A stretch of 64,000 bases of DNA, from the NCBI RefSeq assembly GCF_009914755.1, contig NC_060947.1, one strand, 5' to 3'. The stretch's first letter is position 1. The number at the start of each line of letters is the position of its first letter. Both the position numbers and the translations under genes were made by a program. The notes beneath the pieces are model-generated. The model searched no databases. It saw only the letters and a program-made list of their open reading frames with translations, and was not told the DNA's origin. Shown here one piece after another: positions 1,115 to 58,220 of the stretch. Source of the stretch: the human T2T-CHM13v2.0 reference genome, Homo sapiens.

Positions 1115-1760
1115 CAAGTTCTTGATGCATGATTTTAAATAAATGACCCTTGAAAACATAGTAAGTGAAAGGAAGCCAGTCAAAAATAGCCACATATTGT
1201 ATAATTCATTCATGGGAAATGTTCCCAATAGGCAAATCCATAGAGGCAGAAAGCAGATCAGTGGTTTGAAAGAGGATAGGGGAATGGAGAATGACTGCTA
1301 CTGGGCGCAGGGTTTCTTTTTAGGGTGACAAAATGTCCTAAAATTGGGTAATAGTGATAGCTGCACATGCTAAAAGGTAGAACTTTGTAGTATGTGAATT
1401 ATATTTCAAGAAAGCTGTTATATAGAAACATAAAAATTTTAAATGATAAAAGTTATTCCTGTTAGGTAGGAGAAAATGTGTATGTTTATATAAAAGATGA
1501 GATTAGACACGAAAAAATAAAGGAAGAAAAGAAGAAAAAAGCAAGTAAGCTGATACATGCTACAACATGAATGACTCTTGAAAACATGCTAAGTGAAAAC
1601 ATACTAAGTGAAACAACCTTTGTATGATTCCACTTACATGAAATATCCAGAATAAGAAAATTTATAGAGGCAGAAAGTAGATTAGTGGTTATTTAGGGGG
1701 GAACCTGTTAATTGGTACAGGGTTTCTTTTAGGGAGGGGTAGCAATGTTTAAAAACAGAT
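1115..1760 (+). mobile_element. Two further L1M 3' UTR fragments in tandem
   Basis: Repeated motif series ccttgaaaacat...aagtgaaa...atagaggcagaaag...ggtttctttt at about 1145-1420 and 1550-1740. Confidence 0.7.
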
Positions 1761-11316: not shown

Positions 11317-11439
<123 letters not shown>

Positions 11440-14859: not shown

Positions 14860-15496
14860 ATTCAAAAGCTCTTAGGAAATTCAGAGGGAGAACAGGAGGA
14901 GTTTGTGTCATTGGTAAGTTCCTGGCCATCTTAATAAACACAGCAGCACCCCCACCCCTGCCACTTTAGAAGCCTTTTTAGACATTGGGGAAATAAACTA
15001 TCTTAGAGAAGCCTGTGGGAAAAAAAGCCCGTTAACCACAATGTGGGGCCATGGTAGGCTAACATTGTCATTGACCTACCACTGTCAAGTGTAGAAGATA
15101 GAAAGGGAAAAAAAAAACACTAAAGAGAAAAATATGAAAGATGAGGGAGAACAAAGAAAGAGGGCATCTTGGCTACATCTGAACTTTTAGAGCACTAATA
15201 GAATCATTGCATTTAACCCTTGAGCTTAGACTGTCCTGTCTGAAATTCTTTGTAGCATACTTGCCTTATTTCCCTAACCAAATCCTAAAAGCCCTGAGGC
15301 TTTTAGCAGGCACTCTGTTGACAACACCACCATCAACCAATCCAGCTGGACATGTGGAACTGTCTCCTCTCCTAAACAACCCAGCAACTACAGCAAAACA
15401 CAAATCTCCCCTTGAGTTCAAATTCTCTTCCTGTTACCATCCCATTCCTCTGCATCTCTTTAAAGTAAAATTCTTTAAAGAGTTATCTATACTTAC

Positions 15497-15620
15497 TGCC
15501 TTTATGTCCTCACTTTCTATTCTCGTGAGCTCTCCAATCAGGCTTCCAAACTGAACTGCTTCCAAGCCAGTCCACCAACACTGCGCTTGCTGAATCCACC
15601 AGTTCCTTTAACTTTCAGCA
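15497..15620 (-). other. KIAA1210: Candidate non-coding alternative first exon of KIAA1210
   Basis: Donor ggca|GTAAGTAT (GT at 15496-15495); no ATG in the segment; lies directly downstream of a promoter motif cluster and 4.1 kb upstream of exon 3. The 5' end is uncertain. Confidence 0.6.
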
Positions 15621-15625
15621 GCATC

Positions 15626-15645
15626 TGACGTGATTGGCCACGCCC
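15626..15645 (-). promoter_or_regulatory. GC-box/KLF + CCAAT + CRE-like promoter cluster
   Basis: Minus strand reads GGGCGTGG-CCAAT-CACGTCA contiguously. Confidence 0.6.
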
Positions 15646-15937
15646 TTCTTTTTGAATAATTTTATCACTTGTCTTCTGGAACACCACACTCCCTTAATTT
15701 TCCTCCTACCTTATTGGCTGTTCCTTCTGGGTCGCCTTTGCTGGATCTCTCTCCTCTCCCTGATTTTGAAATGTAGCACTGCAGGGCTCTGTCCTTGGCT
15801 CTCTTCTTTGTCTACAATCACTTCCTAGAACCTCACCATTAAATAGAAAAGTTAACCTGAGCAGAATTGCAAGCCACGTATTTTCAATTTTCTAGTAGCT
15901 ACATTTTTAACAAGAAAAAAGAAACAGGTGAGACTGC

Positions 15938-17263
<1,326 letters not shown>

Positions 17264-38011: not shown

Positions 38012-38950
<939 letters not shown>

Positions 38951-56860: not shown

Positions 56861-57309
56861 TTATGTTCATGATGGTGATGTGAACCCATCCCAGGAGGGC
56901 CGATCTCAAGGCAGAATGTCCACAGGATTGGCCCACTGTTTCTTCCTCCCTACTCCTAAAAAAGTAGATGTGATTTCCAGAATCTTGAATAAATGCTCGG
57001 TTGCCTTTGGAATATCCACACTTGACTTCAAGGAGTCAGGAAGTGGTGATCCGAGGTCCTCTTTTACTTGTCCTCACAATTTAAGGAAATGTCTTTAGGA
57101 AACATGGAAATTCAAGGGTACATATGTGGCCTGTTACAAATGGCGGACATAGGAGAATTAGGGAGGGGAAAATATAGATTTGGGGATATCAGCAAACTCT
57201 ATTCTTAGAAGTGTAATAAAAGCGCAAAAGGACACATAAGGAGGGAATTCACACAGAATCCAGAAATCCCTCCTCAGAAACACCTCAAAGCTGGGCCTCT
57301 CTCTTGTTA

Positions 57310-58220
57310 TCAAGCTGCTATTGGACATCTCCACCTGGATGTCCCATGGGCATTTCAAACTCAACTTGTCCAAAGTTGAGCTCCTTCTCTCCCCTTTATT
57401 CATAATCTCCTAAGCCTCTCTTTACCACCCAATTTGCCAAATTAAGAAATAGAAGGTCATCCTCAGCACTGCCTTCTGTCTCAGCACATGACTGTCAACT
57501 AATCCACAAGCTGTGTGGATCTGAATTCCTAAATAGCTCTCTAATGCACTTATGGCTTGTCTTCCGCCCCAATTTATCAACTCTCCTTGGACTGGAACAA
57601 TATTCTTCTCAATATCTCCTTTGCTATTACTCAGTTAATTTCATCCCCCTGCCATGTACAAAACCACCAGAGGGAACACTGTAAAAGTCAAATCTGCCCA
57701 GGTCAATTTATTGCTTTCAAAACACCTCCCTGTCTTCCCAGAGCCTTTGCAGTGAAGTGAAAATACTTGGAGAGACACAAGCCCTGGCCACAGCTAAATT
57801 GTCTCCAACACTCTTTCTTCTCATGGGGGCCTCAGATAGTTTACATCAACAAGAGGAGGGACAGATTATAGGTCTATGAGCTGCCCTAATTCATTATTGG
57901 CATGCCATGCTATTTTACTCTTGTATGCCACCTCTATCCAAAAAGTGCTCCCCTTCCCCTCCTTTGACCTGGTGAATCTTACTCAGTTTTCAAATTTTAC
58001 TCAAACCTCACCTCCTCTTTGTATGTCCTCCCTTCACTACAGCCTCTCCTTTGCATGCTAATGTTCCATATAAGACCTTGAACACGCTCCTCGTACTGTA
58101 ATTGTCTGCTCAAACTGAGGCCCTTCCTGGGCAGGGACCATATTTTATTGATCTCTATCTTTAGCACTCAACACAAGACTGAGACCAAAGAAGGCATTTG
58201 AAAAGGTTTGTGGAATGAAC
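57310..58220 (+). mobile_element. L2 fragment
   Basis: ttggacatctccacctggatgtcccatgggcatttcaaactcaacttgtccaaa...gggcagggaccatatt...gtggaatgaa. Confidence 0.7.

What the first reader, a model, noticed from the sequence alone, without database searches (positions are those of the whole stretch)
15490..15650. Candidate KIAA1210 promoter and first exon exapted from the antisense strand of an L2 RT motif
Seen: the minus strand carries a contiguous GGGCGTGG (SP/KLF), CCAAT (NF-Y) and CACGTCA (CRE/ATF-like) cluster at 15645-15626. An ATG-free ~120-nt stretch follows, ending at a consensus donor gca|GTAAGTAT (15497). On the plus strand the same bases are an L2 ORF2 remnant: ctttcagcagcatctgacgtgattggccac reads LSAASDVIGH, the decayed RT motif LSAAFDTVDH. 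Known: CRE sites bound by CREM-tau drive post-meiotic spermatid genes, and KIAA1210 is acrosome-associated. Inference: point mutations in an RT motif created a germ-cell promoter that yields the shorter isoform starting at MAESLSE (11382, strong Kozak).
Basis: partly seen in the sequence, partly recalled or inferred. Interest (0 to 1): 0.7.

Follow-up and report, generated by a model that had tools for sequence, protein, structure and literature searches.

The report
KIAA1210 promoter built from antisense L2
The main annotated start of the testis gene KIAA1210 (promoter motifs, first exon and its splice site) lies on the reverse strand of a decayed ancient L2 retrotransposon, an ordinary though tidy case of a gene borrowing repeat DNA.

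Summary
On the minus strand GGGCGTGG, CCAAT and CACGTCA lie end to end at 15645-15626. The donor gca|GTAAGTAT ends an exon at 15497. One slip: an ATG sits at 15624-15622, but 15621-15497 has none.

The "candidate" exon is already annotated. It is exon 1 (15497-15582) of the RefSeq-selected transcript NM_001394962.1, so the cluster lies 44-63 nt upstream of the annotated start.

The plus strand is an L2-type reverse-transcriptase remnant (about 15351-15826, probably on to about 16170). A profile of human copies plus two window fragments hits platypus reverse transcriptases at E = 5.5e-25. Platypus proteins align to LSAASDVIGH and its flanks.

Against 21 other human L2 copies, 7 of the 20 cluster bases depart from the majority; elsewhere in the remnant 56 of 389 do. 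None of the 21 copies carries either CpG of the cluster. Substitutions therefore made the motifs.

CREM-tau control, germ-cell use and cross-species conservation could not be tested here. This is a new example of a known kind (TE-derived promoter) and of low to moderate interest.

The parts
15351..15826 (+). Decayed L2-type LINE ORF2 (reverse transcriptase) remnant, 5' part. It runs from HVELSPLL (matching HAHVSPIL), through SKIL*RVIYTYC, QSGF...STNTAL, LSAASDVIGH and FSSYLIGCSF, to QGSVLGSL, with stops and frameshifts.
   Evidence: Profile A2 hits platypus RVT_1 proteins at E 5.5e-25. tblastn of platypus proteins: 15674-15808 at E 3.4e-4, 15612-15671. Local alignments upstream reach 15351. 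DNA alignments to up to 38 other human copies cover about 15350-15829.
15990..16170 (+). Probable continuation of the same L2 ORF2 (C-terminal region, QWLPIKLRVK...), after an internal loss of about 165 codons.
   Evidence: tblastn with platypus P0004/P0010 is weak: E 0.019-0.075 against the whole window and 4e-4 against the 1.2 kb region.
15638..15645 (-). GC/GT box GGGCGTGG (Sp/KLF type), -63 to -56 from the annotated start.
   Evidence: It is the antisense of codons H-A (CAC GCC). At 15642, 0 of 21 L2 copies share the window base, where the majority is T.
15633..15637 (-). CCAAT box (context GGCCAATCA), -55 to -51.
   Evidence: It is the antisense of ATT GG(C), in the I-G codons. At 15637, 2 of 21 copies share G. 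At 15633, 7 of 21 share A.
15626..15632 (-). CRE-like site. CACGTCA contains the half-site CGTCA. With the flanking T it reads TCACGTCA, 7 of 8 of the palindromic CRE. Position -50 to -44.
   Evidence: It is the antisense of (T)GAC GTG. The L2 majority is GAC ACA. At 15630, 0 of 21 copies share G.
15606..15611 (-). A/T-rich TTAAAG at -29 to -24, a possible weak TATA-like element.
   Evidence: The position is right for a TATA element. Function and origin are not resolved.
15497..15582 (-). Exon 1 (86 nt, non-coding, no ATG) of NM_001394962.1. The annotated start at 15582 is the A of GCGCAGTG.
   Evidence: Hub annotation. Sequence and absence of ATG. The exon is the antisense of the L2 codons from ...YTYC to STNTAL.
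15489..15496 (-). 5' splice site GTAAGTAT of intron 1.
   Evidence: It is the antisense of TAT ACT TAC (Y-T-Y). The column majority of 17 L2 copies equals the window here, but 0 of 24 copies carry an intact GTAAGT and 1 of 24 carries GTRAGT.
11322..11392 (-). Exon 2 with the start codon (11382-11380, MAESLSE; A at -3, G at +4).
   Evidence: Hub annotation.
38062..38854 (-). Alternative distal first exons of other KIAA1210 transcripts, in CpG-rich DNA (G+C 0.59-0.67, CpG observed/expected up to 0.66).
   Evidence: Hub annotation. This contrasts with the CpG-poor L2-derived proximal promoter (CpG observed/expected 0.30-0.47).

Best explanation
An ancient L2 LINE inserted in the plus orientation into what is now the KIAA1210 locus and decayed. 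Its antisense strand was later co-opted as the proximal, CpG-poor promoter, transcription start, 86-nt 5'UTR exon and 5' splice site of the transcript that RefSeq selects for KIAA1210.

The element brought no promoter of its own, because the DNA used is internal reverse-transcriptase coding sequence read backwards. About seven substitutions are concentrated in the 20 nt that encoded the D-T-V-D-H-S part of the RT motif LDLSAAFDTVDH. They turned it into an abutting Sp/KLF box, CCAAT box and CRE-like site 44-63 nt upstream of the start.

The inferred mechanism is that NF-Y, an Sp/KLF factor and a CRE-binding bZIP protein assemble on this module. The bZIP protein could be CREM-tau in spermatids, but this is not shown. 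Together with the A/T-rich -29..-24 element and the CA start, they would direct initiation at about 15582. The transcript splices 15497->11392 and is translated from the first ATG at 11382.

Shown here: the sequence features, the L2 identity and the derived state of the motif bases. Taken from the annotation: the exon and the junction. Inferred: factor binding and tissue of use.
For: Motifs, donor and ATG-free exon. The exon coincides with exon 1 of NM_001394962.1 in the hub table, which places the cluster at -63..-44.

The motif cluster is rarer than chance: 1 in the window, against 3 of 200 shuffles with any.

L2-type RT identity:
- 9 dispersed DNA relatives on six other chromosomes at 70-82% identity; all 9 align at higher sensitivity.
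- Profile A2 finds 569 proteins at E<=1e-3. The 8 best are platypus RNA-directed DNA polymerases, and 116 of the 120 listed carry PF00078.
- tblastn and local alignments of platypus proteins to 15351-15808.
- Platypus LINEs are mainly L2 (PMC3501640, passages).

Derived state of the motif bases: 7 of 20 cluster positions differ from the majority of the other copies, against 56 of 389 in the rest of the remnant (one-sided Fisher p 0.022). Only 15 of 390 20-nt windows are as diverged. 0 of 21 copies have the G at 15630 or at 15642.

Literature:
- A bioinformatic analysis cited in PMC3091680 places CREs preferentially near -45 (passage).
- L2s are a known substrate for promoters, irrespective of orientation (PMC7890895, passages).
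Against: - No transcript-end, junction-read, chromatin or binding data could be consulted. The start and exon rest on the annotation alone.
- Cross-species conservation could not be tested, because no mammalian genomes other than this one are held.
- The copy comparison uses alignments anchored on the window. The majority at 15633 is a tie (13 G / 13 A) and at 15638 it is 11 T / 9 C, so only 4-5 changes are clear-cut.
- A p of about 0.02 is modest.
- The mouse orthologue Gm14569 is listed among Sertoli-enriched genes (PMC11195235). KIAA1210 also appears in adrenal and prostate papers (listing). Use of this promoter in spermatids specifically is therefore unproven.
- The TE-derived TSS atlas files that could be read do not list KIAA1210. 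Its two largest files could not be read.
Confidence: 0.7

Rival explanations
1. The promoter and L2 origin are the same, but the bZIP site is not a CREM-tau site. The plus strand reads TGACGTGA directly abutting ATTGG. From recall, this resembles the ATF6/CREB3-family site TGACGTG(G/A) next to an NF-Y site, as in ER-stress elements. The module would then be read by ATF6-like factors (for example the spermatid CREB3L4), or by ubiquitous CREB/ATF with NF-Y and Sp/KLF, possibly also in Sertoli or other somatic cells.
For: Sequence. The site is 7 of 8 of the CRE palindrome rather than a perfect CRE. CREM occupancy and regulation are poorly predicted by sequence (PMC3091680). The mouse orthologue is listed as Sertoli-enriched (PMC11195235). 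KIAA1210 occurs in adrenal and prostate expression papers (listing only).
Against: The ATF6/ERSE resemblance is recalled, not tested. The ERSE-II spacing (one base between ATTGG and CCACG, recalled) is not met. The half-site CGTCA is a bona fide CREB/CREM half-CRE (PMC3091680). KIAA1210 is reported as a late-spermatid gene (PMC13623318).
Confidence: 0.2
2. The motif cluster is a by-product of neutral decay and contributes little. Initiation at 15582 would depend on other elements (distal enhancers, permissive spermatid chromatin), or this start would be a minor one that the annotation over-weights, with the CpG-rich distal promoter at 38.1-38.9 kb doing most of the work.
For: 3 of 200 shuffles give such a cluster by chance. 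15 of 390 20-nt windows of the remnant are equally diverged. A CpG-rich alternative promoter exists. KIAA1210 is absent from the readable tables of the TE-TSS atlas.
Against: The only such cluster in 64 kb sits at -63..-44 of an annotated start, with an A/T-rich element at -29..-24. RefSeq selected this transcript as the representative one. Both CpGs of the cluster persist in CpG-poor DNA and are seen in none of 21 other copies. The atlas's largest files were unreadable.
Confidence: 0.1

Closest known systems
TE-derived transcription start sites in human tissues (RAMPAGE atlas, PMC12963367; main-text passages read)
   Same: The start lies inside a transposable element. Testis is the tissue richest in such starts. 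L2- and MIR-derived starts fall in the old 'Mammals' class and are more diverged than promoter-proximal copies.
   Different: Here the element supplies no intrinsic promoter. Antisense internal RT coding sequence was remodelled by substitutions. The start is the RefSeq-selected one of a protein-coding gene. KIAA1210 was not found in the 3 readable supplementary files, and two large files were unreadable.
L2-associated mammalian promoters (PMC7890895; passages)
   Same: L2 acts as raw material for promoters. [quoted passage not shown] The authors conclude that lineage-specific variation unmasks latent regulatory potential.
   Different: That study associates L2 with tissue-shared promoters. KIAA1210 is described as testis-predominant (PMC6969474). 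The study names no individual motifs, whereas here base-level changes are mapped.
CREM-tau / CRE-dependent spermatid promoters (PMC3091680; passages)
   Same: A half-CRE CGTCA within a near-palindromic site at -50..-44, the position reported as preferred for CREs. The gene is reported as expressed in late spermatids.
   Different: Occupancy and dependence are unknown for this gene. The paper stresses that sequence does not predict regulation. Its supplementary target lists could not be opened.
Other gene-structure exaptations of L2: the L2-derived intronic poly(A) site making IL18R1-Short (bioRxiv 10.64898/2026.05.25.727421, abstract only) and L2-derived microRNAs (PMC6433296, listing and abstract only)
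   Same: An ancient L2 fragment supplies a signal that shapes a host transcript.
   Different: Those cases supply a 3'-end signal or a hairpin. This one supplies promoter motifs, start, 5'UTR exon and splice donor.

Membership tests
L2 (LINE-2) retrotransposon, ORF2 reverse transcriptase remnant | Translated similarity to reverse transcriptase (Pfam RVT_1, PF00078) of non-LTR elements | tested here: met
   Profile A2 (8 fragments of human copies plus 2 window fragments) finds 569 proteins at E<=1e-3, best 5.5e-25. 116 of the 120 listed carry PF00078. tblastn of platypus proteins onto the window gives E 2e-4 to 3e-4. Direct Pfam scans of single fragments gave nothing (0 of 4, 0 RT of 5, 0 of 3).
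L2 (LINE-2) retrotransposon, ORF2 reverse transcriptase remnant | Many dispersed, highly diverged copies in the same genome | tested here: met
   9 DNA relatives on six other chromosomes at 70-82% identity. 26 of the 30 loci fetched with the platypus RT piece are of this type (37-56% identity, stops inside); the other 4 are L1-like. Copies align to the window at 58-72%.
L2 (LINE-2) retrotransposon, ORF2 reverse transcriptase remnant | Assignment to the L2 clade rather than CR1/L3, RTE or L1 | tested here: inconclusive
   The 8 best hits are platypus proteins, and platypus LINEs are mainly L2 (PMC3501640). L1 copies score only about 30% identity with the same query. No Dfam or Repbase library was at hand, so neither the family label nor the subfamily is formally assigned.
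TE-derived (exapted) promoter / first exon | Transcription start and first exon lie within the element | tested here: met
   Annotated exon 15497-15582 lies inside the remnant 15351-15826 (hub table).
TE-derived (exapted) promoter / first exon | Experimental 5' ends and promoter activity at the site | not testable with these tools
   No CAGE, RAMPAGE, chromatin or reporter data are available. The evidence is the RefSeq model only.
TE-derived (exapted) promoter / first exon | Purifying selection on the co-opted bases across species | not testable with these tools
   No other mammalian genomes are held. Only a within-genome comparison with paralogous L2 copies was possible.
CREM-tau-dependent post-meiotic promoter | CRE or half-CRE close to the start | tested here: met
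   CGTCA within TCACGTCA at -50..-44. Motif definitions come from PMC3091680.
CREM-tau-dependent post-meiotic promoter | CREM occupancy in round spermatids and loss of expression without CREM | not testable with these tools
   The supplementary target lists of PMC3091680 could not be opened. No paper holds KIAA1210 together with CREM in a relevant context (3 papers, none on testis regulation by title; listing).
CREM-tau-dependent post-meiotic promoter | Expression in spermatids from this particular start | not tested
   A passage in PMC13623318 states late-spermatid expression of the gene. Promoter usage per cell type is unknown, and the primary paper (Iwamori 2017) is not held.

The most novel reading that the evidence does not exclude
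A burst of about seven substitutions in a 20-nt stretch of antisense L2 reverse-transcriptase coding DNA created, from nothing, a compact KLF/Sp, NF-Y and CRE module. Together with a near-ancestral cryptic splice donor in the same element, this module gave an X-linked gene implicated in sperm-head formation its principal, spermatid-active promoter. Each substitution could be placed on the mammalian tree and matched to the gain of post-meiotic expression. That would make this a base-by-base model of promoter birth from transposon coding sequence.
Probability: 0.3. Interest if true: 0.45.

Novelty: new member of a known kind. Interest (0 to 1): 0.27.

Why it matters
KIAA1210 is an X-linked testis gene repeatedly listed among male-infertility candidates (PMC9826517 and PMC13623318, passages). 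Its representative transcript starts in a small, CpG-poor, repeat-derived promoter whose three motifs occupy 20 nt. That gives a short, well-defined non-coding target for variant interpretation in infertile men.

It is also a clean teaching case. The promoter did not come with the transposon; it was made by point changes in backwards-read coding sequence. The general phenomenon of TE-derived and L2-associated promoters is well documented, so the gain is one mapped example rather than a new principle.

Tried and rejected
- **Direct family scans.** Pfam on stop-free fragments of the window (4) and of other copies (5 and 3) gave no RT match. There was one spurious Fungal_trans hit at E 0.031.
- **Solved structures.** phmmer of an 81-aa fragment gave 0 hits. 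hmmsearch with profile A2 gave only 5 weak unrelated hits at E >= 0.92. The RT identity came only from the profile search of the large protein database.
- **Wrong query.** A genome search with an 84-aa fragment of locus L007 mostly hit an unrelated repeat joined to its tail (query positions 59-84). It was useful for only a few loci.
- **Inherited splice donor.** The idea that the donor was inherited intact from L2 is half right. The column majority of 17 copies equals the window. In a window-independent codon extraction, 0 of 24 copies carry GTAAGT and 1 of 24 carries GTRAGT. I therefore call it near-ancestral only.
- **Origin of TTAAAG.** This could not be settled. The window seems to lack about 46 nt of L2 here, so the alignments are unreliable.
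- **RNA families.** Rfam finds nothing in 15350-16170. The hits at 16461-16600 are Alu-type and one CRISPR-repeat hit is noise.
- **Sources unavailable.** Earlier findings were not open. Iwamori et al. 2017 is not held.
- **Literature.** KIAA1210 appears in 56 papers. It appears with 'acrosome' in 12, with 'CREM' in 3 and with 'transposable' in 1. By title, none deals with the gene's promoter. I did not open the 3+1 papers.

Full report
**1. What is in the sequence**

Read on the minus strand, window 15660-15480 contains AAGAAGGGCGTGGCCAATCACGTCAGATGCTGCTGAAAG..., and the exon further on ends ...AAAGGCA|GTAAGTAT. By script:
- GGGCGTGG is at 15645-15638, CCAAT at 15637-15633 and CACGTCA at 15632-15626.
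- The exon ends at 15497 and the intron begins GTAAGTAT.

The one slip is that an ATG lies at 15624-15622, directly after the CRE-like site. The ATG-free run is therefore 15621-15497.

The 20-mer is unique in the window even with 3 mismatches and occurs in 0 of 100 shuffles. A looser and fairer test asked for any GC box, any CCAAT and any TGACG half-site within 30 nt, on either strand. It finds one place in 64 kb, this one, and only 3 of 200 dinucleotide-preserving shuffles yield any such place.

**2. The 'candidate' exon is the annotated one**

The hub's table gives exon 1 of NM_001394962.1, the RefSeq-selected transcript, as 15497-15582. Exon 2 is 11322-11392, and coding starts at 11382. The predicted donor, junction and start codon are therefore those of the reference model.

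With 15582 as +1, the elements sit as follows:

| Element | Position |
|---|---|
| GC box | -63..-56 |
| CCAAT | -55..-51 |
| CRE-like site | -50..-44 |
| A/T-rich TTAAAG | -29..-24 |
| second CCAAT | -135..-131 |

- The start is the A of GCGCAGTG. This fits the initiator pattern as I recall it; I did not test it.
- The exon has no ATG. Spliced to exon 2, the first ATG has A at -3 and G at +4 and opens MAESLSE, with in-frame stops upstream.
- The acceptor of exon 2 has a long pyrimidine tract.
- The promoter is CpG-poor: 4 CpGs in 15500-15700, observed/expected 0.47.
- The alternative first exons at 38062-38854 sit in CpG-rich DNA: G+C up to 0.67, CpG observed/expected up to 0.66.

The gene thus has a distal CpG-rich promoter and a proximal CpG-poor one. 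Some joins of the distal exons to exon 2 keep an upstream in-frame ATG open, so a longer isoform is possible. I was not given those transcripts' structures and cannot confirm it.

**3. The plus strand is a decayed L2-type reverse transcriptase**

The three forward frames show pieces such as QSGFQ...STNTAL, LSAASDVIGH, FSSYLIGCSFWVAFAGSLSSP and NVALQGSVLGSLL, interrupted by stops and frameshifts.

*DNA relatives.* A DNA search of the window's own genome with 15480-15860 found nine relatives on six other chromosomes at 70-82% identity. With more sensitive settings all nine align, together spanning 15402-15825.

*Scans that failed.* Single-fragment scans were uninformative:
- Pfam gave 0 of 4, 0 RT of 5 and 0 of 3.
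- Solved structures gave 0 hits with a single fragment, and only 5 unrelated hits at E >= 0.92 with a profile.

*Profile search.* A profile of eight fragments from other human copies plus two window fragments (alignment A2) was searched against longer proteins of the 5.8-billion-protein set. It gave 569 proteins at E <= 1e-3 among 8000 scored candidates. The eight best are platypus 'RNA-directed DNA polymerase' entries (5.5e-25 to 3.5e-23), and 116 of the 120 listed carry PF00078.

*Platypus proteins against the window.*
- They hit 15674-15808 (E 3.4e-4, 54% identity over 46 residues) and 15612-15671.
- LSAASDVIGHALL aligns to LSAASDTVDHPLL; most platypus and frog proteins read LSAAFDTVDH.
- SKIL*RVIYTYCLYVL aligns to SKILERVVYNGCLEFL, and HVELSPLL aligns to HAHVSPIL at 15351.
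- A weak match (QWLPIKLRVK against QWLPIDLRSK) suggests that the same ORF continues at about 15990-16170, after an internal loss.

*Family label.* Platypus LINEs are mainly L2 (PMC3501640, passages), and L1 copies match the same platypus query at only about 30% identity. The label L2 is therefore well supported. It is not formally assigned, because no repeat library was available.

*Other checks.* Rfam finds no RNA family in 15350-16170.

*Mapping of the gene features onto the L2 reading frame.* All of the following are the reverse complement of L2 ORF2 codons:
- the promoter module: motif ...D-T-V-D-H-S;
- the start: H-S-T-E-T-A-L;
- the whole exon;
- the donor: Y-T-Y-C in the window, V-Y-N-x-C in platypus.

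**4. Were the motifs made by substitutions?**

I fetched further human copies using a 190-residue piece of a platypus protein as the query, which is independent of the window. Of the 30 loci returned, 26 are L2-type.

*Codon-level extraction.* The usual DNA of the motif in those copies is ...TCA GCA GCA TTT GAC ACA GTT GAT CAC TCC CTC..., whereas the window has TCA GCA GCA TCT GAC GTG ATT GGC CAC GCC CTT.

*Base-by-base table.* Of 67 unique loci, 21 copies have a DNA alignment spanning 15618-15655. Against these, the window departs from the majority at 15630, 15631, 15632, 15633, 15637, 15638 and 15642.

The number of the 21 copies that share the window base at each position is:

| Position | Window base | Copies sharing it |
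|---|---|---|
| 15630 | G | 0 |
| 15642 | G | 0 |
| 15637 | G | 2 |
| 15632 | G | 3 |
| 15631 | T | 6 |
| 15633 | A | 7 |
| 15638 | C | 9 |

- The bases 15630 and 15642 are the G of the two CpGs of the cluster.
- Four changes are therefore clear, two are likely and one (15633) is ambiguous; it is a 13/13 tie in the larger set.
- On the minus strand the majority reading GGGAGTGATCAACTGTGTCA became GGGCGTGGCCAATCACGTCA. Each of the three motifs needed at least one change.

*Is the cluster unusually diverged?* Over all 409 columns with ten or more copies, the window differs from the majority at 63 (15%). The cluster has 7 of 20 against 56 of 389 elsewhere (one-sided Fisher p 0.022), and only 15 of 390 20-nt windows are as diverged. 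The motif stretch is thus among the most changed parts of the remnant. This is what motif creation predicts, but the statistic is modest and the alignments are anchored on the window.

*The start and the donor look different.* Around 15582 the majority equals the window, except for 15585 and 15592 (14 copies). At the donor the column majority of 17 copies equals the window's ACTTAC. In the window-independent extraction, however, 0 of 24 copies carry an intact antisense GTAAGT and 1 of 24 carries GTRAGT. The donor is near-ancestral rather than inherited intact.

That ATG lies upstream of the annotated start.

**5. How it most likely works**

*Shown here:* a compact Sp/KLF box, CCAAT box and CRE-like module; an A/T-rich element; a CA start; an ATG-free leader; and a consensus donor. 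All lie within antisense L2 coding DNA, and the activator motifs are derived.

*Taken from the annotation:* transcription starts at 15582 and the transcript splices to 11392.

*Inferred:* NF-Y, an Sp/KLF factor and a CRE-binding bZIP protein drive the start. The context GGCCAATCA fits the recalled NF-Y consensus.

*Evidence bearing on CREM-tau.*
- PMC3091680 defines CREs as TGACGTCA or the half-sites TGACG/CGTCA, and it cites a bioinformatic analysis placing CREs near -45.
[quoted passage not shown] - The mouse orthologue Gm14569 is listed among Sertoli-enriched genes (PMC11195235), and the gene turns up in adrenal and prostate papers (listing).

CREM-tau is therefore a reasonable candidate and no more. 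An ATF6/CREB3-type reading of TGACGTGA next to ATTGG is a recalled alternative.

**6. Comparison with what is known**

TE-derived starts are abundant, above all in testis, and L2/MIR-derived ones belong to the old mammalian class (PMC12963367, passages). L2s are a recurrent substrate for promoters regardless of orientation, which was interpreted as variation unmasking latent potential (PMC7890895, passages). Other L2 exaptations shape transcripts at the 3' end (bioRxiv 10.64898/2026.05.25.727421, abstract). This locus is one more member of that kind.

It is mildly distinctive in two ways. One internal RT-coding fragment supplies the whole unit of promoter motifs, start, leader exon and donor. 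It also serves the transcript chosen as representative.

I found no paper linking KIAA1210 to CREM or to transposable elements in a relevant way. The searches gave 56 papers for the gene alone, 3 with 'CREM' and 1 with 'transposable' (listings only). The gene is absent from the three readable supplementary files of the TSS atlas, but two large files were unreadable. The CREM target tables could not be opened. Iwamori 2017 is not held.

**7. Verdict**

- The structural interpretation is correct but already annotated.
- The L2 origin and the creation of the motifs by substitution are supported.
- The regulatory claim (CREM-tau, germ cell) and conservation remain untested.
- This is a new member of a known kind, and interest is about 0.27.

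Noticed in passing
window 38062-38854 (minus strand): The alternative first exons of other KIAA1210 transcripts sit in a CpG-rich block (G+C 0.59-0.67, CpG observed/expected up to 0.66). The gene therefore has a distal CpG-island-like promoter besides the CpG-poor L2-derived one. Some joins of these exons to exon 2 keep an upstream in-frame ATG open.
   Followed up: partly
window 57306-57395 (+) and 1577-1693 (+): There are further L2-type RT fragments in the window. Platypus proteins hit 57318-57395 at E 2.5e-5 and hit 1577-1693 weakly at E 0.08-0.17.
   Followed up: no
window 15624-15622 (minus strand): An ATG directly follows the CRE-like site. It was created by the same TTT-to-TCT change that turns the RT motif's F into S. 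It lies 40-42 nt upstream of the annotated start, so it would matter only for transcripts that start further upstream.
   Followed up: partly
window 15633-15645 and 15626-15637 (plus-strand reading): The plus strand reads TGACGTGA abutting ATTGG and then CCACG. From recall this resembles ATF6-type sites and ER-stress elements (NF-Y site next to CCACG), though the recalled one-base spacer is missing. This was not tested.
   Followed up: no
window 16461-16600: An Alu-type repeat lies just beyond the L2 remnant. Rfam gives sub-threshold hits to SRP RNA, mir-3135 and mir-1268, and the translation shows the usual Alu-derived peptide.
   Followed up: no
L042/L051 (G000:C23:117667007-117667459, about 113 kb beyond the window's end): One of the better preserved human L2 RT remnants found lies close by on the same chromosome. 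It matches the platypus RT at 44% identity over residues 4-157 and has a 99-aa open stretch.
   Followed up: no
L007 1670-1746 and many loci: The tail of the L007 fragment (...IWFGCMPPPNLMLKCDSQC) belongs to a different, very abundant repeat. Most of the 146 matches are to that tail (query positions 59-84), not to L2.
   Followed up: no
L013/L057 (G000:C19:54157964-54158221): An L2-type copy has unusually long open stretches around it, up to 218 aa in one frame and 186 aa reported. This is probably chance in serine/leucine-rich decayed sequence.
   Followed up: no
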